A stretch of DNA of 13,555 nucleotides from a virus (IMGVR_UViG_3300026224_000027:1-13555); one strand, 5' to 3'. Positions 489 through 7,052 are shown, numbered from the stretch's first letter. Translations and numbers: made by a program. Notes: generated by a model not told the origin, from the letters alone.

Positions 489-715
489 ACCCGCTCCAGA
501 ATGTTTTAAACATGCATCTTGCAAATATCTTTTAAAAAAGGTCAAAAAACGCGCTGTATGTTGAACACAAAATAAGCAAAATTAACATACCAAAAATAAA
601 AGCACTTAAAATTCAATATGATAGAAAGATGATGATGACGAATGAAAATGCAAAAACCAGCCTTTTTCCGCGCCGCTCCCGCCCCGTGGCAGACCACCCC
701 ACCGGGAGGACCCGT

Positions 716-745: not shown

Positions 746-1507
746 TCATGCTCCACTCGATTTCAGTAATCCGCGATAGTCGAGGGCCGCGACACCTGCA
801 TCTATGCGCACCTTCCAGGCGACGCCATCAACAGTAAAGCCCTCCTGCTCCTCAAGATATGGCGTATCAATACCATCAAGATAAGCGACCTCTATCGTGT
901 CCATACCCTTCGCCGCTGCCACATACCACTCCTTGTTATTGGCTTTATCAAGACGTGGCTCAACGATTACCTCCGCCATATCTTTCACCACGTTAATGAT
1001 GCCGGGGTTCTGATTGATAGTGCCCACGCCATCAACCGGAAAGAGTGATGACGATGACAGAATGGCGCGATGTGCGGCAGACTCCAGCGCGGCGGGGACC
1101 AGGACAAATGCAGGGGTAATATTCAGCGAATCGCCGTTAGCGTCTTCCTGGAGGCGCATCAGCTTACGGGCTTCGTTAAGCCCCTCCATGTCCATATCCT
1201 TCGCAATAAGATTTTTATGATCGGCATGGAATAACGCTTTACCATCCGTAAACTTGCCGTTGCTGGTTAACAGGAGATAAACCAGATTGCCAACTGTTCT
1301 GGCAGCTGCGCGTCCCATCGCCATGGGGATTGTAGTTAACTGGGTCAGGTCATCGTTGATAATGGCCTGACGGGTAACGGAAAATATATTCCCGTACGTG
1401 GCCAGCGCAATAGGTACACCTTTATCGCTGGTGGTGATGTATTTATATTCCGCACCTTCCGGTACTTTATCCAGCTTTGAAAAACATTCAGACCAACGCG
1501 CTTTGCT
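746..1507 (-). CDS. Major capsid protein, C-terminal portion (second reading frame of the protease-capsid fusion gene)
   Basis: Frame is open from the stop at 1508-1510 down to 746; reads ...ATYGNIFSVTRQAIINDDLTQLTTIPMAMGRAAART... with capsid-like character. Contiguous with but frame-shifted relative to the 1345..2658 ORF. Confidence 0.5.
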   Translation of the reverse strand, partial: SKARWSECFSKLDKVPEGAEYKYITTSDKGVPIALATYGNIFSVTRQAIINDDLTQLTTIPMAMGRAAARTVGNLVYLLLTSNGKFTDGKALFHADHKNLIAKDMDMEGLNEARKLMRLQEDANGDSLNITPAFVLVPAALESAAHRAILSSSSLFPVDGVGTINQNPGIINVVKDMAEVIVEPRLDKANNKEWYVAAAKGMDTIEVAYLDGIDTPYLEEQEGFTVDGVAWKVRIDAGVAALDYRGLLKSSGA

Positions 1508-2658
1508 TCATGAAAGTTTGAAAGCGAACCGGTACGCGTCCATTTCTGGAACGTTTCGCCGCTGTCCTGCCAGCCTTTCAGTACAGATTTTTCAGCCCCA
1601 CCAGCCAGAATATGAGAAAAATCACTGCTGCTGTGTGTAAAAGCCGCATTAACAACCTGCGAGCGATTAATAAAACCGCTCACAGTGATACCACGATCAA
1701 CCAGTGATGCCTGGGCCATTTCAAAAAGACTCATCATCGCGTAAGGGTTGCCTCGTTCAGGCCGTTCATACCCAAGACGGGAATAAAGCCCCTGACGAAT
1801 TGCATCACCTGTTATGTTTCCGTTTCCAGCATAGATATGAGGCGGGGTATTTTTATTGGATGGCGTGGACTCGCGCCCCAGCTCGTTCAACAGCTTTTCA
1901 CGGGCCATTTCCGGTGTACATGATGCATCTTCCAGACACGCCATTTTGATCCCGTCGTAACGACTGCCGAACAGGCTAAACACTTCACTTATTCCATTGA
2001 TGCGCTTCTGTTCATTACCAGCAATGTTTGCCGCTCCCTGTGGCGGTGTAATCATTCCTTTAATGGTTTCCGGCATATGTAAAAAATCTCCTGTGCGTTT
2101 CGATTCAATTCGCGCCATTGCTCTGACGGATGGCAACAATTCATCAGCAAAACCGTGCTTAAGGCATTCTTTCCCATCCATCCAGGTTTCATCCTCCAGC
2201 ATGGCGGTAATTTCCTGTGCTGATTTGCCCGTTTTTCTGGCATAAGCAGGGATTAACACGGTTTCCACCTTATCCAGCAAATCAGCATAATCACGCATAT
2301 CGCCAGCATTTCCGCCAGAGATCCCCCACGGTTTATGGATCATCATCATGGCGTTCTCCGGCATCACTACACGATCGCCAGCCATTGCGACCACCGAAGC
2401 CATTGAAGCCGCAACACCATCGATATAAACCGTAATGTCTGCCGGATGATTCCGTAGCAGGTTATAGATGGCGATGCCTTCAAACACATCACCACCTGGT
2501 GAATGGATCCTCAGATTGATATGTGAAACATCGCCAAGGGCTTTCAGGTCTTCCGCGAACTGCTTTGCAGTAACACCGAAGCCGCCAATCTCCTCATAGA
2601 TAGATATATCCGCCGCTCCGCGAACATCCGCCGCCTTAATGGTGTACCAGCGATTCAT
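1345..2658 (-). CDS. ClpP-family (S14) prohead protease domain fused to N-terminal part of major capsid protein; apparent frameshift near its 3' end
   Basis: N-terminal about 185 aa carry ClpP-like motifs: GVAASMAS (Ser), MIHKP (His), SPGGDV. The remainder is capsid-like. The last about 50 aa of this frame look non-native where the second frame (746..1507) is open. Confidence 0.65.
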   Translation of the reverse strand: MNRWYTIKAADVRGAADISIYEEIGGFGVTAKQFAEDLKALGDVSHINLRIHSPGGDVFEGIAIYNLLRNHPADITVYIDGVAASMASVVAMAGDRVVMPENAMMMIHKPWGISGGNAGDMRDYADLLDKVETVLIPAYARKTGKSAQEITAMLEDETWMDGKECLKHGFADELLPSVRAMARIESKRTGDFLHMPETIKGMITPPQGAANIAGNEQKRINGISEVFSLFGSRYDGIKMACLEDASCTPEMAREKLLNELGRESTPSNKNTPPHIYAGNGNITGDAIRQGLYSRLGYERPERGNPYAMMSLFEMAQASLVDRGITVSGFINRSQVVNAAFTHSSSDFSHILAGGAEKSVLKGWQDSGETFQKWTRTGSLSNFHEAKRVGLNVFQSWIKYRKVRNINTSPPAIKVYLLRWPRTGIYFPLPVRPLSTMT

Positions 2659-3361: not shown

Positions 3362-5194
3362 TTAATTTTTGCTATCGTCATTAGTGACCGATACACATGA
3401 TGGCATCCAGTCTTCTGATTCCTCCGTCAGTGTCACGTTTGAACGCAAACCGTGTTTCGTTTTCCGTTTCATATACTCCCTGCCATATTCCGCCATTGCC
3501 CCCGGCATATCTTTACCGAAGCGCGTCAGTGTTACAGGTTTACCAAACCCATGTGCCCTCATATAAGCCAGATAGGCATGATAGAGATACCTGCGTGGGC
3601 TGAATGGCACAATTTCAGCATTACCCACTAACAGGCCATCACACATTACCGACGCCATGAGATAGCCGCAGAAGTCCACCAGCGAATCCCCCTCTCGCTT
3701 TATCGCCAGTGCTTCTTCAGATTTCTGCTGCTCATATAACAGGCGTCTGGCTTCGTCCTGGTCAGCAAACCGTGTAAGCAGATGGCGAATCACTACCGCC
3801 AGCTCACCTTCTATTTTTTCCGCCAGCATTGGATCACGTTCGTTCTCCGGTACAACTTCCGAAAAATTGAATATCACCCGACGACGTGAGATCCCCCCGC
3901 TGCGGTCACTGAATGACATGGCGTTATTGTTAACCGCCAGCACTACTGCCGGAATACGCGTTGAGTAGGGGGCTTTGTGTTTCGGGTCAATTGCCACCTT
4001 GTCACCGCCTGTAATAGCCTTAATCCCTGCCCCATCACCAGCGTAGCGGGTCATATCCGGCATGATAATCAGCGAAAAGCCAACCACTAACGCGCGTTCC
4101 CTTGCATCTTCCAGCGCCTTCATGCTTGCCGATACTGTGTTGGCCTTACCCGCCAGCATGGTGCAAATCTCCGCCATCACGCTTTTACCACTTCCCCCTG
4201 GACCTGTTACCTCAATGAATAACTGCCAGTCGTACCGGTTCGCCAGCACCATGAATAATGCAGCCAGTACGCGATCCGCCTTGCGGTCATTCTCAGCCAC
4301 CGAACGGCGTAACCACTTCCAGAAATTCGGCGCATGTGTTGCCAGCGTTTCCCCCTCTGCTGGTGGGCTGAAAGGTAATTCACTGGCAATTAACAACCAG
4401 TCGTTTTTGTTATGCTCCCGAAAATTACCTGTTCTGGTATCAAATACCCCGTTACTGAATCCAATCAGGTTACGGGCTGTATTCCCCATTACAGGCAAAC
4501 TTAACTTCATGGTATCGACCGCCGATTTAATGGCGTTCTGCGAATAGCTGATCTCCGCATCAATGAAAATCTGTGCCATAGCTCGCTGTAATTCTTTATC
4601 CTGTACTGGCTCCCATACAACGCCGTTGTAATGGTGAACAGTGTCAGAGTCAGCATGAATCGCCAGTTCACCGCCATAATGTGCCAGGAGAACTTCGCCG
4701 CGTTGACTTGCTCCCATCTGGTTAAGCGCCAGTGATGAAGCGTTATCGTCTTTTACCCGCTCTTTTTTCTTTACAGGCAGTTCAACTACCTTTTTCTTTT
4801 CCGCCAGCTCTGCCCGTTCACGTTCCAGATATTCGTGCCAGTTCTCCCGTTTCTGGCTGTGCATTCCTTCAGGATAATAATCAGCATCCCTGACACCTGC
4901 CGCTGCCAGTTTCTGCCCGATGGTATTAACAAGCACCGGACGCAATAACCCCGCCTGATAGAGACGCACGCGATAGCGTCCGTCCGGTACGATTTGCAGG
5001 TTGTCCAGTTCGGCAAGTTGTTGCTCTCCAAGCCAGACAGGTGGCACGTTATCGCCTGCCAGTCGCCCGTCCTGTTCCTGCCACTGCTTCGCATGTGCCC
5101 ACGCATCACTACCCGCAAAAATGATGACTTCCGTCATTTTGTCACGCGGCTGGTGTTTTAAATTTGGCGCTTTTTTCATTTCTGCTCTCTCCAC
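3362..5194 (-). CDS. Replication initiator: phage/plasmid primase-helicase, P4/D5 family (Walker A NTPase)
   Basis: 610 aa; Walker A motif GPGGSGKS and a downstream hydrophobic beta-strand (LVVGFSLIIMPD) typical of the P4-alpha C-terminal NTPase family. Alternative start at the ATG 5179 forms an ATGA overlap with the upstream 99-aa gene. Confidence 0.7.
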   Translation of the reverse strand: MERAEMKKAPNLKHQPRDKMTEVIIFAGSDAWAHAKQWQEQDGRLAGDNVPPVWLGEQQLAELDNLQIVPDGRYRVRLYQAGLLRPVLVNTIGQKLAAAGVRDADYYPEGMHSQKRENWHEYLERERAELAEKKKVVELPVKKKERVKDDNASSLALNQMGASQRGEVLLAHYGGELAIHADSDTVHHYNGVVWEPVQDKELQRAMAQIFIDAEISYSQNAIKSAVDTMKLSLPVMGNTARNLIGFSNGVFDTRTGNFREHNKNDWLLIASELPFSPPAEGETLATHAPNFWKWLRRSVAENDRKADRVLAALFMVLANRYDWQLFIEVTGPGGSGKSVMAEICTMLAGKANTVSASMKALEDARERALVVGFSLIIMPDMTRYAGDGAGIKAITGGDKVAIDPKHKAPYSTRIPAVVLAVNNNAMSFSDRSGGISRRRVIFNFSEVVPENERDPMLAEKIEGELAVVIRHLLTRFADQDEARRLLYEQQKSEEALAIKREGDSLVDFCGYLMASVMCDGLLVGNAEIVPFSPRRYLYHAYLAYMRAHGFGKPVTLTRFGKDMPGAMAEYGREYMKRKTKHGLRSNVTLTEESEDWMPSCVSVTNDDSKN

Positions 5195-5475
5195 GCGGCA
5201 ATCATGTTTTTCAGTTCCTGTAGTTTTTTATCAACATCCATACATGACACATGATTATTTCTGGAAAGCGGGATTTCCCGCCTGAATCTGCTAATAAAGA
5301 TCTCCACGTTCAGCGAACTATGAAATGAATAGCCATCACGAATAAAATACACACGGTCAAACATCAGTTCTTTTACCGTTACTCTGTTACCGTTCTTATC
5401 CAGATAAATAGCGCCGGGGATAATTTTGGGGTGTGCATAACCGCTGGCAGTCAAGCCAGATAAATATGTTCTCAT
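5176..5475 (-). CDS. Hypothetical protein (99 aa)
   Basis: Stop overlaps the start of the replication gene (ATGA at 5176-5179); compact operon context. No recognisable motif. Confidence 0.45.
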   Translation of the reverse strand: MRTYLSGLTASGYAHPKIIPGAIYLDKNGNRVTVKELMFDRVYFIRDGYSFHSSLNVEIFISRFRREIPLSRNNHVSCMDVDKKLQELKNMIAAWREQK

Positions 5476-5481
5476 GATTAT

Positions 5482-5802
5482 TTATCCCCGATTTGAATCA
5501 GTATTCGCTTTCTTTATGGCATTTAATGCATCTGCGGCATTTTCAATGGTGCACCGTAACGAAATATCAAACTGCCCAAGCATTGCCAGTAACAAACCGA
5601 TATTACCCATATCAATGCGCATAGCCTTTTCGTCATAGTCCTCATTTTCTGACGCATGCCACATCAGGCTACCAATTGACGCAATACCCATTGATATATT
5701 GTCAGTAGCCCCATCCGCAGCGGAATAAACCTTTTTAGCAATATCATGCTCACAGTTAAAATGCGGATTAATCAGGTACTGGTAATTTGACATATCAGGC
5801 AT
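5482..5802 (-). CDS. Hypothetical protein (106 aa)
   Basis: Start ATG (5802) lies 2 nt before the TGA of the upstream 67-aa gene; 6-nt gap to the next gene. No recognisable motif. Confidence 0.45.
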   Translation of the reverse strand: MPDMSNYQYLINPHFNCEHDIAKKVYSAADGATDNISMGIASIGSLMWHASENEDYDEKAMRIDMGNIGLLLAMLGQFDISLRCTIENAADALNAIKKANTDSNRG

Positions 5803-5998
5803 GGCACACCCCCTGACGAATACGGGCGGCGAATATCATCACGCAGCCAGCCGGGGATTGCTGGCGTGCTTCCTGTTCGCTGGTGGCCACGATGTGAATC
5901 ACGCGCGGTTGTGCCGTGCTCAGGGCGATAAAACGCCAGATGAATTTATTCAGGTTGTGCGAGTCCCGCCCTTGCGGGTGTGTGGTATGATTTAACAT
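5795..5998 (-). CDS. Hypothetical small protein (67 aa), first gene of leftward operon
   Basis: Internal Met of the 306-aa track ORF (MLNHTTHPQ...), with GAGGT about 6 nt upstream. The longer ORF upstream of this Met runs through promoter, operator and terminator elements and is judged spurious. Confidence 0.4.
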   Translation of the reverse strand: MLNHTTHPQGRDSHNLNKFIWRFIALSTAQPRVIHIVATSEQEARQQSPAGCVMIFAARIRQGVCHA

Positions 5999-6094
5999 AG
6001 CTACCTCGATACTTCTGCTATCGTTGGTGGTTAGAAGCCCGGTTAGTGTTAGCGCACTGCCGGGTTTCGTCGTTTCTGCACCTTGCATCAACAA

Positions 6095-6170
6095 GGTGTT
6101 AAACACCAATTTAAGCCTAGGTGTTAAACACGTCAAGTGTTGAACACTTATTTTTTTTCCTGCATACTGC
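6095..6170. promoter_or_regulatory. Divergent promoter region with three 13-bp palindromic operators
   Basis: Operators GGTGTT-A-AACACC (6095-6107), GGTGTT-A-AACAC (6120-6131), AGTGTT-G-AACACT (6136-6148). Rightward promoter: -35 TTGAAC (6141-6146), 17-bp spacer, -10 CATACT (6164-6169). Leftward promoter on minus strand: -35 TTGACG (6136..6131), 17-bp spacer, -10 TAAATT (6113..6108). Confidence 0.45.
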
Positions 6171-6197
6171 ATTTGTTTTTTGTAAGGAGTACACAAC

Positions 6198-6377
6198 ATG
6201 GCGACAAAAGCAGTAAACGCAAAATCACAAACAGTTGCGGCAAGGGTTCCGCATGAAGTTATGAACAATGTTGAGGCGGTAAAAATGCCTGGTGAAAGTA
6301 CAGGGCAGTTTGTAACAGCAGCATTAAAGCGAGAAGTTGAATACCGCCAGCGTCGCAAGGCCAAAGAGCAGGAGTAA
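6198..6377 (+). CDS. Small ribbon-helix-helix-like DNA-binding protein (59 aa), putative island regulator; absent from ORF track
   Basis: AAGGAG 8 nt upstream of the ATG. Sequence MATKAVNAKSQTVAARVPHEVMNNVEAVKMPGESTGQFVTAALKREVEYRQRRKAKEQE shows a strand-helix-turn-helix pattern reminiscent of Arc/CopG RHH proteins. Sits directly beside the operator cluster. Confidence 0.45.
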   Translation: MATKAVNAKSQTVAARVPHEVMNNVEAVKMPGESTGQFVTAALKREVEYRQRRKAKEQE

Positions 6378-6434
6378 CCATCACCAGCGCCGTGGTGCGG
6401 TGAACTGTGGCGCACAGGGTTACAGGTATCTACG

Positions 6435-6614
6435 ATGACTGACAAATCATTAAAGAAATTATCCTCATCCAAGAAAAAACAACGCAAAAATGCGGTAAAC
6501 GAACATGAACCGGAGAGATTCGCACCATGTGCGTTTATCCTTGAGAAGTACCTTAAAGAGTATTCTAGGAAAATACGCTCATTGCAGGCATGGCAGCGAA
6601 TCGAGCCAGACTGA
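6435..6614 (+). CDS. Hypothetical basic small protein (59 aa); absent from ORF track
   Basis: ATG-initiated ORF (MTDKSLKKLSSSKKKQRKNAVNEHEPERF...) downstream of the RHH gene and followed by a strong terminator; RBS weak. Confidence 0.3.
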   Translation: MTDKSLKKLSSSKKKQRKNAVNEHEPERFAPCAFILEKYLKEYSRKIRSLQAWQRIEPD

Positions 6615-6678
6615 TAGCATTGCCCACTAGCCGACAACCTGGTATTCTGGATATGCTCAAGTTTAGTGTTATGCCACT

Positions 6679-6706
6679 GGCGACCGCCCCCGGTCGCCTT
6701 TGTTTT
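6679..6706 (+). terminator. Rho-independent terminator ending the rightward small-ORF transcript
   Basis: GGCGACCG-(CCCC)-CGGTCGCC 8-bp GC stem followed by TTTGTTTT; lies between convergent ORF 6435..6614 and alpA. Confidence 0.6.
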
Positions 6707-6724
6707 ATGTGTCATAGCTCCCCC

Positions 6725-6949
6725 CTAGGCTGCCTTACCTGAATTAACGCGGTCACGGCTTTGCACCCAGTCCATAACTTCGGAAAGCAACCAGCCTACA
6801 GAACGCCCCCCAAGATTACGGCGAGACGGAAAGCCCCCTTTCTTCTCCAGTTCGTAGCGTGTAGTACGGCTGACGCCTGTTAACTTACGACATTCATCCT
6901 CACGAATTACGCGATCTGTTAGTGATTGAAATTGTGTATTTTGATTCAT
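6725..6949 (-). CDS. alpA: AlpA-family transcriptional regulator (excisionase-like HTH)
   Basis: 74 aa; C-terminal segment LGGRSVGWLLSEVMDWVQSR resembles the AlpA conserved region (GxxSVGWxExEIxxWxxxR); positioned downstream of int in the same orientation, as in P4-like elements and Gram-negative PICIs. Confidence 0.75.
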   Translation of the reverse strand: MNQNTQFQSLTDRVIREDECRKLTGVSRTTRYELEKKGGFPSRRNLGGRSVGWLLSEVMDWVQSRDRVNSGKAA

Positions 6950-7052
6950 AAAAACACCCTCGAACGTAACCGAACGAGGGCATCTTATTTACCATAGCAG
7001 TTGGTGCAATATTGGAAAAATAAACTTTATTCTAATTTATCGTTCTCCATGA

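What the first reader, a model, noticed from the sequence alone, without database searches (positions are those of the whole stretch)
5999..6197. Divergent promoter switch with three 13-bp palindromic operators controlling the replication operon
Three closely related palindromes (GGTGTT-N-AACACC type) sit on the -35 of the rightward promoter, in the spacer of the leftward promoter and at its predicted start. This is a lambda-like bistable switch layout between a small regulator gene (rightward) and the small-ORF/primase operon (leftward), and could be the island's induction control point.
Basis: seen in the sequence. Interest (0 to 1): 0.6.

Follow-up and report, generated by a model that had tools for sequence, protein, structure and literature searches.

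The report
Repressor-operator immunity switch of a phage satellite
The three palindromes are real and are very probably the binding sites of a small ribbon-helix-helix repressor that silences the replication operon of an E. coli phage satellite, a class of elements for which no master repressor has been described.

Summary
Three perfect GTGTTNAACAC palindromes lie at 6096-6106, 6121-6131 and 6137-6147. They sit on the start and the spacer of a strong leftward promoter, and on the -35 of the rightward promoter of a 59-aa gene.

That gene belongs to the YlcI/YnfO family and is predicted to have a ribbon-helix-helix (RHH) fold. In about 30 related islands of Enterobacterales the sites keep fixed positions, but their sequence changes together with the N-terminal arm and beta-strand of this protein. 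It does not track AlpA or the Icd-like protein. One natural cassette swap replaces exactly the operators plus YlcI codons 1-32.

- The left half of the interval encodes a conserved, SymR-like cis-antisense sRNA. It lies opposite the ribosome site of the Icd-like gene and has strong covariation support.
- The whole region lies inside a minus-strand frame kept free of stop codons. This frame starts 9 nt after alpA and ends as the Icd-like protein, like eta/kil of phage P4.

The locus is therefore an immunity module on the internal promoter of a P4-type operon, not a lambda-like bistable switch. The model island EcCICFT073 carries the same module. I rate it a new variant of a known kind, with moderate to high interest.

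The parts
6095..6107 (.). Operator O1, GGTGTTAAACACC. It covers the predicted start (about 6101) and the -10 flank of the leftward promoter.
   Evidence: The homologous site lies at -99 to -103 from the ylcI ATG in 29 loci.
6120..6132 (.). Operator O2, GGTGTTAAACACG. It lies in the spacer of the leftward promoter and abuts its -35.
   Evidence: The homologous site lies at -76 to -78 (mostly -77) in all 29 loci, always followed by TCAA.
6135..6149 (.). Operator O3, AAGTGTTGAACACTT. It lies on the -35 (TTGAAC) of the rightward promoter and is specific to this lineage.
   Evidence: A site at -61 exists only in the QT[VLI]AAR class. Other classes carry a site at -32, just after the -10, which the window lacks.
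6108..6136 (-). Leftward promoter P_L: TTGACG, 17 bp, TAAATT. It is the equivalent of P4 PLE and drives icd/kil-like, orf106, DUF4222 and the primase.
   Evidence: 9 of 12. The -35 is conserved at -61 in 28 of 31 loci, with TAnnnT at 17-18 bp.
6140..6168 (+). Rightward promoter P_R: TTGAAC, 17 bp, CATACT. It drives the repressor gene.
   Evidence: Positional homology. The TATACT/CATACT -10 ends 29-31 nt before the ATG in most loci.
6198..6377 (+). YlcI/YnfO-family 59-aa protein, the predicted ribbon-helix-helix repressor.
5983..5991 (+). Extended -10 (TGgTATGAT) of the antisense-sRNA promoter, embedded in codons 3-6 of the icd-like gene.
   Evidence: TAnnnT is invariant in 24 loci (columns T27, A28, T32).
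5997..6079 (+). Cis-antisense sRNA of about 80 nt, with two stem-loops; the second is an intrinsic terminator. It is complementary to the 5' UTR, Shine-Dalgarno (6003-6007) and start codon of the icd/kil-like mRNA.
   Evidence: Rfam SymR RF01809 matches over its full length at 33.6 bits, E=1.3e-4, below the gathering score. The alifold energy is -35.2 on the + strand and -12.2 on the - strand. 96.8% of cells are paired, 15 of 26 pairs change on both sides, and 0 of 500 shuffles reach this. There are 106 G.U cells against 1 A.C cell.
5795..5998 (-). Icd-like gene, a member of the P4 Kil family. It is the first gene after P_L.
   Evidence: NCBIfam NF033153. phrog_6196. The homologue in L011 matches P4 Kil at 44% identity, E=2e-14. 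The window protein matches P4 at E=0.011.
5795..6715 (-). Eta-like 306-aa ORF. Its ATG lies 9 nt after the alpA stop and has a GGAG ribosome site. It runs antisense through orf59b and ylcI, then through the operators, P_L and the sRNA target, and is in frame with icd/kil-like.
   Evidence: The same minus frame has no stop over 180 nt in 22 of 23 loci, while the other frames have 1-10 stops. No Pfam domain was found.
6725..6949 (-). alpA (Phage_AlpA family; homologue of P4 vis), the upstream entry point of read-through transcription.
   Evidence: Pfam PF05930, E=4.8e-16. Synteny is conserved in most loci.
6679..6708 (+). Intrinsic terminator of the rightward ylcI-orf59b transcript. It is one-directional.
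   Evidence: 8-bp stem with 7 G-C pairs, followed by TTTGTTTTAT.
6435..6614 (+). Second small rightward ORF (59 aa, phrog_21027) of unknown role, co-oriented with ylcI.
   Evidence: It is annotated as hypothetical in some genomes.
3362..5802 (-). The rest of the controlled operon: orf106, DUF4222 and a D5/P4-alpha-type primase-helicase.

Best explanation
The interval is the immunity-control region of an EcCICFT073-type, P4-related phage satellite integrated between thiM and rcnR of E. coli.

The 59-aa YlcI/YnfO-family protein (6198-6377) is a ribbon-helix-helix repressor. Dimers bind the 11-13-bp sites O1, O2 and O3. Occupancy of O1 and O2 blocks RNA polymerase at the strong leftward promoter P_L, which drives icd/kil-like, orf106, DUF4222 and the primase. 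Occupancy of O3 limits the repressor's own promoter.

A second layer is an antisense sRNA of about 80 nt, transcribed rightward from a promoter inside the first icd-like codons. It pairs with the Shine-Dalgarno and start codon of any leaky P_L transcript and blocks icd/kil translation. Loss of translation probably causes polarity on the primase.

Induction probably bypasses both layers, as in phage P4. Helper-induced transcription from the alpA promoter reads through the region while ribosomes translate the stop-free eta-like ORF (6715-5795). This would protect the transcript from the sRNA and from Rho, and would collide with repressor synthesis.

What is shown: the sites, their conservation and positions, their co-variation with YlcI, the RNA structure and its strand, the conserved open frame, and the homology to P4 Kil.

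What is inferred: DNA binding, repression, expression of the sRNA, the role of Rho, and the induction route.
For: The sites are real and non-random. Their placement on promoters is conserved: P_L -35 at -61 in 28 of 31 loci, O2 at -76 to -78 (mostly -77), O1 at -99 to -103, and a third site at -32.

There are nine or more specificity classes in which the 11-mer changes with YlcI residues 11-16:
- QT[VLI]AAR with GTGTTGAACAC
- QSVTAR with GTGTCTTACAC
- QSLKSR or QALKAR with GTGTGGCCCAC
- [KR]KLEAR with GTGTCAGCCAC, the same in Xenorhabdus, Pectobacterium, E. coli and Salmonella
- KRFDVR with GTGTC[CG]GACAC
- QK[LV]QAR with GTGGACTCCAC
- QKMSAR with CTGGCACCCAG

The operators dissociate from the other candidate binders. 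L037 and L039 share AlpA at 99% and Icd at 93% identity but have different operators and different YlcI N-terminal halves. L039 and L040 share identical YlcI and identical operators but have AlpA at 26% and Icd at 43% identity.

In the cassette swap between the window and L039, identity is 95.0%, then 54.9%, then 94.1%. The breakpoints lie at O1 and at YlcI codon 32.

The sRNA rests. The open frame rests. The P4 precedent for vis-eta/kil and for translation preventing termination is in PMC10111431, the P4 record and the Kil homology. AlpA activates the gene after alpA in EcCICFT073, and helper phage induces alpA (PMC6092414).
Against: There is no experimental binding or transcript data. Pfam gives no significant RHH hit, only sub-threshold matches to CB_ParB_C, PSK_trans_fac and DUF7557. 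Foldseek against the PDB found nothing significant. The AlphaFold2 monomer does not form the beta-strand, although this is expected for an obligate dimer.

The O1-O2 spacing varies from 22 to 25 bp and O2-O3 is 16 bp, so no helical phasing argues for cooperative binding. The rightward -35 is weak in most loci.

The sRNA hit is below Rfam's gathering score. The ylcI frame and the eta-like frame share wobble positions, so substitution patterns cannot tell which strand is coding. Three loci (L010, L041, L042) have a stop in the otherwise open frame. Co-variation among linked elements is partly inheritance, although the recombinants argue against that as the only cause.
Confidence: 0.78

Rival explanations
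1. A lambda-like bistable switch. Two antagonistic regulators, made from the two divergent promoters, compete for three graded operators.
For: The promoters are divergent and back to back, and the three related sites differ in quality. PHROGs labels the first leftward gene 'transcriptional repressor'.
Against: That PHROG label probably traces to the obsolete P4 'cI gene product' CDS, which is really the eta/kil region (inferred). The leftward protein belongs to the Kil/Icd family and does not track the operators. In most relatives the sites cover P_L and the start of P_R, which means repression of both. No Cro-like HTH or RHH gene is found in the leftward operon.
Confidence: 0.08
2. The palindromes are AlpA (activator/excisionase) binding sites through which the helper-induced regulator switches on the replication operon.
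For: AlpA is the known activator of Gram-negative PICI genes (PMC6092414), and alpA lies 600 bp away.
Against: Loci with 99% identical AlpA have different operators, and loci with 26% identical AlpA have identical operators. The sites sit where binding would occlude RNA polymerase, not upstream of a -35.
Confidence: 0.03
3. The repeats are replication-origin iterons bound by the primase/initiator, like the P4 alpha-binding TGTTCACC repeats.
For: Short repeated sites lie near a replication operon. P4 ori repeats lie next to its vis/PLL region.
Against: The positions are locked to promoter elements in about 30 loci. The sites track YlcI. Identical operators occur with different replication genes: D5-type primase, DUF927, RepA helicase and Toprim_3.
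Confidence: 0.03
4. The palindromes act at the RNA level as small hairpins or terminators in the transcripts, and the conservation of the protein is incidental.
For: The scan flags 6107-6095 (- strand) as a terminator-like stem.
Against: Several classes have non-palindromic cores at the same positions (GTGTCAGCCAC, GTGTGGCCCAC). In one class the site occurs in both orientations (GTGTAAGACAC and GTGTCTTACAC), as expected for a DNA site read by a symmetric dimer.
Confidence: 0.02

Closest known systems
Phage-satellite P4 left-operon control: PLL, then vis (orf88), then eta, which contains PLE, the CI RNA with seqA, and kil, followed by alpha
   Same: An AlpA/Vis gene is followed directly by a long ORF that contains an internal promoter and ends as a Kil-family protein of about 65 aa. 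A P4-alpha-type primase lies downstream. In P4, translation of the long ORF lets upstream transcripts escape immunity (PMC10111431).
   Different: P4 immunity is a sense-encoded processed RNA (CI; Rfam C4/isrK). Here no C4 or isrK match exists. Instead a protein repressor gene with its own promoter and operators is embedded antisense in the long ORF, together with a cis-antisense sRNA. P4 Eta has an Ash domain, whereas the window ORF has no detectable domain.
Phage P22 immI region (Mnt and Arc RHH repressors, Pant/Pmnt divergent promoters, sar antisense RNA)
   Same: A small RHH repressor is transcribed divergently from the operon it represses. Its operators overlap both promoters. A short antisense RNA targets the ribosome site of the first gene of the repressed operon. 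This comparison rests on established knowledge.
   Different: There is no sequence relationship. A single repressor is present rather than Mnt plus Arc. The repressed operon encodes a Kil/Icd protein and replication functions, not an antirepressor. The module is nested in an ORF on the other strand.
SymE/SymR type I toxin-antitoxin (Rfam RF01809)
   Same: A two-hairpin RNA of about 77 nt has its promoter inside the target ORF and covers the target's 5' UTR, Shine-Dalgarno and start codon (PMC1891008). There is a full-length match to the model.
   Different: The score of 33.6 bits is below the gathering score of 61. The target is a Kil/Icd-family protein, not an AbrB-fold SymE. No LexA box is present.
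Stl/Rpr master repressors of Gram-positive PICIs (SaPIs)
   Same: Functionally, a satellite-encoded repressor is transcribed divergently from the excision/replication operon and keeps the island quiescent (PMC6092414).
   Different: The fold (RHH rather than HTH) and size differ, and no helper-protein antirepressor interaction is known. Gram-negative PICIs are induced through AlpA.
YlcI (DLP12) and YnfO (Qin) of E. coli K-12
   Same: They belong to the same NCBIfam family, NF041551.
   Different: Those are uncharacterised prophage proteins in another context. From memory, not checked here, they lie near the terminase genes. No papers on their function were found.

Membership tests
YlcI/YnfO family (NCBIfam NF041551) | Score above the curated cut-off of the family model | tested here: met
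   59.7 bits against a cut-off of 30, E=2.1e-16. PGAP names the identical protein YlcI/YnfO.
Ribbon-helix-helix (Arc/MetJ/CopG) repressors | Beta-alpha-alpha fold | tested here: met
Ribbon-helix-helix (Arc/MetJ/CopG) repressors | G-x-S/T/N turn at the start of helix B | tested here: met
   G32, E33 and S34 are invariant in 24 homologues.
Ribbon-helix-helix (Arc/MetJ/CopG) repressors | Significant match to a curated RHH sequence family | tested here: not met
   No Pfam hit passes threshold. Only weak hits to CB_ParB_C, PSK_trans_fac and DUF7557 appear. The PDB profile search found nothing.
Ribbon-helix-helix (Arc/MetJ/CopG) repressors | Binds repeated or palindromic operators that overlap its own promoter | not testable with these tools
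   The sites exist and co-vary with the predicted DNA-reading segment. Binding was not measured.
P4-type nested eta/kil control | AlpA/Vis gene immediately upstream of a long ORF, with coupled starts | tested here: met
   The alpA stop is at 6725-6727, and the ORF ATG at 6715 is preceded by GGAG. The same holds in L006, L028 and EcCICFT073.
P4-type nested eta/kil control | The long ORF contains an internal promoter and ends in frame as a Kil-family protein | tested here: met
   The window ORF 6715-5795 is in frame with icd-like, as in at least 17 other loci. Kil homology: E=2e-14 for L011 and E=0.011 for the window protein.
P4-type nested eta/kil control | CI/C4-type immunity RNA and seqA target | tested here: not met
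   There is no C4 or isrK match, even at E up to 10.
P4-type nested eta/kil control | Translation of the long ORF prevents Rho-dependent termination | not testable with these tools
   The only evidence is indirect. One minus frame is stop-free in 22 of 23 loci, against 1-10 stops in the other frames.
SymR (Rfam RF01809) | Score at or above the gathering threshold | tested here: not met
   33.6 bits against 61. The architecture and strand are supported independently.
Lambda-type bistable switch | Two mutually antagonistic DNA-binding regulators made from the divergent promoters | tested here: not met
   No DNA-binding family was detected in any leftward-operon product scanned. The Icd/Kil protein does not track the operators.
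Gram-negative PICI (EcCICFT073 type) | Order int, alpA, regulatory/Bro zone, primase, then captured capsid genes, at a chromosomal att site | tested here: met
   EcCICFT073 itself has the same order, including the YlcI-like and Icd-like genes.
Gram-negative PICI (EcCICFT073 type) | Induction and packaging by a helper phage | not testable with these tools
   No experimental data exist for this island.

The most novel reading that the evidence does not exclude
Gram-negative PICIs and P4-related satellites carry a previously unrecognised, exchangeable immunity cassette with three parts: RHH repressor, operators and antisense sRNA. It comes in many hetero-immune specificity classes. It is written antisense inside a long ORF whose only selected property is to stay open, so that ribosomes can escort helper-induced transcription through the repressed region. 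The YlcI-like protein would then be the long-sought master repressor of these islands, and the classes would define satellite incompatibility or immunity groups.
Probability: 0.4. Interest if true: 0.78.

Novelty: new variant of a known kind. Interest (0 to 1): 0.64.

Why it matters
[quoted passage not shown] The searched literature since then mentions only AlpA and, for some islands, P4-like immunity RNAs (PMC10111431, PMC11773190).

The module described here is present in the model island EcCICFT073. There the two small genes carry new-style (C_RS30xxx) locus tags, which suggests they were annotated only recently. This one operator class occurs in 487 of 5,426 complete E. coli genomes, and other classes occur across Enterobacterales.

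The work gives a concrete, testable candidate for how these satellites stay silent and how they establish after transfer. It also provides a natural set of matched repressor/operator pairs, which could serve as orthogonal parts and as a recognition code for RHH proteins. Finally, it is a clear example of a regulatory cassette nested antisense in a translated frame.

Tried and rejected
- A tblastn search of the YlcI-like protein against 50,697 phage records gave no match. The Icd-like protein gave a single match.
- An Rfam gathering scan of the whole window found nothing.
- Foldseek against the PDB gave no significant hit. The PDB sequence-profile search gave nothing. A Pfam scan of all 24 homologues gave only sub-threshold hits.
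- I tried to decide which strand is coding from synonymous versus non-synonymous changes. It cannot be decided, because the ylcI frame and the eta-like antisense frame share wobble positions (synonymous fractions 0.47 and 0.41).
- I looked for Bro-N or Ash domains in the window's long ORF, in the EcCICFT073 ORF and in the L006 ORF. None was found, whereas P4 Eta does hit Phage_ASH.
- Window orf106 and P4 ORF106 have the same length but no detectable similarity.
- A hairpin directly upstream of alpA looked like a possible antitermination target, but it is not conserved in related islands.
- Literature searches for YlcI/YnfO, for RHH with PICI, and for Icd-like with satellite found no functional study.
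- The first CFT073 stretch I fetched was the icd prophage, not the PICI.

Full report
**1. Observation**

The interval 5999-6197 is the gap between a leftward gene that starts at 5998 and a rightward 59-aa ORF that starts at 6198. It contains three palindromes:
- O1: GGTGTTAAACACC, 6095-6107
- O2: GGTGTTAAACACG, 6120-6132
- O3: AAGTGTTGAACACTT, 6135-6149

These are three exact copies of GTGTTNAACAC within 52 bp. In the whole 13.5-kb window the only other match has one mismatch and lies at 558. With up to one mismatch, 0.52 matches are expected, and none of 200 shuffles reaches four.

The consensus scan finds a leftward promoter: TTGACG (6136-6131), 17 bp, TAAATT (6113-6108). O2 lies in its spacer and O1 covers its predicted start. 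By positional homology the rightward promoter is TTGAAC (6140-6145), 17 bp, CATACT (6163-6168), and O3 lies on its -35.

**2. Context**

The window comes from an E. coli island of about 10-11 kb between thiM and rcnR. The region 5700-6750 is 100% identical to strain SCU-123. The gene order on the minus strand is:
- integrase
- DUF6387
- alpA (6949-6725)
- Icd-like (5998-5795)
- orf106
- DUF4222
- D5/P4-alpha-type primase
- a prohead-protease/capsid fusion gene

Two small genes lie on the plus strand, at 6198-6377 and 6435-6614. This is the layout of Gram-negative PICIs such as EcCICFT073.

**3. The rightward gene**

The 59-aa protein is a member of the YlcI/YnfO family: NF041551 scores 59.7 bits against a cut-off of 30, and phrog_949 matches. 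I found no functional literature on this family.

**4. Comparative evidence that the palindromes are its operators**

Thirty-five loci from one genome per species and further E. coli and Salmonella loci share one architecture:
- A site sits at -76 to -78 (mostly -77) from the ylcI ATG, immediately followed by TCAA. That TCAA is part of the leftward -35, TTGAcg, which lies at -61 in 28 of 31 loci.
- A second site lies 22-25 bp further left.
- A third site lies at -32, directly after a TATACT -10.

The positions are fixed, but the site sequence differs between loci and changes with residues 11-16 of the protein:
- QT[VLI]AAR with GTGTTGAACAC
- QSVTAR with GTGTCTTACAC
- QSLKSR or QALKAR with GTGTGGCCCAC
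- [KR]KLEAR with GTGTCAGCCAC
- KRFDVR with GTGTC[CG]GACAC
- QK[LV]QAR with GTGGACTCCAC
- QKMSAR with CTGGCACCCAG

The KKLEAR/GTGTCAGCCAC pair recurs in Xenorhabdus, Pectobacterium, E. coli and Salmonella, in otherwise diverged surroundings.

Two observations separate this pattern from mere linkage:
- First, L037 and L039 have 99% identical AlpA and 93% identical Icd-like proteins but different operators and different YlcI N-terminal halves. L039 and L040 have identical YlcI and identical operators, but AlpA is only 26% and Icd-like only 43% identical.
- Second, in an alignment of the window with L039, identity is 95.0% up to 6099, 54.9% from 6100 to 6293, and 94.1% from 6294 to 6378. The exchanged block is exactly O1 through YlcI codon 32, that is, the operators plus the arm, strand and helix A of the protein.

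Genomes with two islands carry different classes (X. innexi L018/L029; X. mauleonii L020/L031). This is what hetero-immune repressor/operator pairs look like.

Several cores are not palindromic, and one occurs in both orientations. That argues for a DNA site read by a symmetric dimer rather than for an RNA hairpin.

The window's O3, on the P_R -35, is peculiar to the QT[VLI]AAR class. The window has lost the usual site after the -10.

**5.

A permissive Rfam scan matched the plus strand at 5999-6071 to SymR (RF01809) over the whole model. The score is 33.6 bits, E=1.3e-4, below the gathering score of 61.

An alignment of 24 loci folds into two stem-loops, the second followed by a U-rich tail. 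The consensus energy is -35.2 kcal/mol on the plus strand and -12.2 on the minus strand. Of all pair cells, 96.8% are paired, and 15 of 26 pairs change on both sides. No shuffle out of 500 reaches this, and slid controls pair at 32-46%. There are 106 G.U cells and only one A.C cell, so the structure is selected on the plus strand.

An invariant TAnnnT lies inside the first codons of the Icd-like gene (TATGAT at 5986-5991, preceded by TG), at the right distance to start the RNA at about 5998. The RNA is therefore fully complementary to the 5' UTR, Shine-Dalgarno (6003-6007) and start codon of the leftward mRNA. This is the arrangement of symR within symE (PMC1891008), and it is functionally like P22 sar.

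**6.

The minus strand carries a 306-aa ORF (6715-5795). It starts 9 nt after the alpA stop behind a GGAG and is in frame with the Icd-like gene.

In 22 of 23 loci the same minus-strand frame, in the same register relative to ylcI, has no stop codon across the 180 nt upstream of ylcI. The other two minus frames have 1-10 stops and the plus frames 0-6. The open stretch (128-414 aa) usually runs from near the preceding gene into the Icd-like gene in frame. In a few loci it ends next to the Icd-like start or continues in another frame.

The encoded sequence has no detectable domain. Its register shares wobble positions with ylcI.

This reproduces phage P4. There, vis (an AlpA homologue) is followed by eta, a long ORF that contains the internal promoter PLE and the immunity RNA, and whose last 65 residues are Kil. 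Translation of eta lets transcripts from the upstream late promoter escape termination (PMC10111431; P4 record). The Icd-like proteins are Kil homologues: L011 matches P4 Kil at 44% identity, E=2e-14, and the window protein matches at E=0.011. The PHROG label 'transcriptional repressor' for this protein probably comes from the obsolete P4 'cI' CDS (inferred).

**7. Mechanism proposed**

- Quiescent state: the RHH repressor occupies O1 and O2 and blocks P_L. It also occupies O3 and limits its own synthesis. The sRNA blocks translation of any leaky icd/kil mRNA, with expected polarity on the primase.
- After transfer to a naive cell, both promoters fire until repressor accumulates. This is establishment.
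- Induction: the helper phage induces alpA, and AlpA activates the gene after alpA, as published for EcCICFT073. Transcription reads through while the open frame is translated, which bypasses operator control and the sRNA and opposes P_R transcription.

Only the sequence-level statements are shown here. Binding, repression, RNA expression, Rho involvement and the induction route are inferred.

**8. Comparison and novelty**

RHH repressors at divergent promoters (P22 Mnt/Arc with sar), P4 eta/kil nesting and SymR-type antisense RNAs are each known. I did not find their combination in the literature: a protein repressor cassette embedded antisense in the eta-like frame and replacing the P4 CI RNA.

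The module is present in EcCICFT073: alpA, then a 433-aa open frame ending in the Icd-like protein, then a YlcI-like 'QALKAR' protein on the other strand, with GTGTGGCCCAC operators. [quoted passage not shown] This operator class occurs in 487 of 5,426 complete E. coli genomes.

**Verdict**

This is a new variant of known kinds, of moderate to high interest, and directly testable.

Noticed in passing
window 5997-6079 (+): A conserved two-hairpin cis-antisense sRNA lies opposite the Icd/Kil-like ribosome site. It gives a sub-threshold full-length SymR match, and covariation and G.U asymmetry are strong.
   Followed up: yes
window 5795-6715 (-): A 306-aa ORF starts 9 nt after alpA and is in frame with the Icd-like gene. 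The same frame is stop-free across the 'intergenic' region in 22 of 23 related loci. This resembles eta/kil of phage P4.
   Followed up: yes
window 6100-6293 compared with L039 1403-1596: A natural cassette swap. Identity falls from 95% to 55% and returns to 94%, and the swapped block is exactly the operators plus YlcI codons 1-32.
   Followed up: yes
L048 (E. coli CFT073, NC_004431.1 1377930-1388654): The model PICI EcCICFT073 carries the same module: a YlcI-like gene at 10474-10653, an Icd-like gene at 10853-11053, GTGTGGCCCAC operators, and a 433-aa open frame that starts 38 nt after alpA.
   Followed up: partly
L041 2000-2364: A second module lies in tandem in the same island. It has a different RHH-like 59-aa protein (VSTHKNERRGNPPFQFRL...), its own sRNA-like leader, and a different palindrome (ATGTGTATATACACAT).
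   Followed up: no
window 558-568: A single operator-like site with one mismatch (ATGTTGAACAC) lies in the gap upstream of the orf180 ORF, which SCU-123 annotates as a DUF1441-family protein. On its own this could be chance.
   Followed up: no
window 746-2658 (-): The prohead-protease/capsid fusion gene is split into two ORFs (1345-2658 and 746-1324). SCU-123 has one intact 1,914-nt gene, so this is a probable frameshift. The island also differs from SCU-123 downstream of the primase.
   Followed up: no
window 6679-6708 (+): A strong one-directional terminator ends the ylcI-orf59b transcript. Its complement encodes the conserved N-terminal 'KTKA..GRQW' peptide of the eta-like ORF in several loci.
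   Followed up: partly
window 6950-6980 (-): A GC-rich hairpin plus T-run lies immediately upstream of the alpA ATG and resembles a terminator or attenuator. It is not conserved in related islands.
   Followed up: partly
L048 9380-9525; L041 and L042 upstream of alpA: Direct repeats of GACAC(A)A lie upstream of alpA in EcCICFT073-type islands. They may be AlpA autoregulation sites.
   Followed up: no
L004, L005, L023, L043, L044: YlcI homologues occur in other contexts. In L043 and L044 (Salmonella) the gene lies next to a Phage_ASH (P4 Eta-like) gene, with AntA and Toprim genes nearby, and the operators are the same GTGTCAGCCA(C) sites.
   Followed up: partly
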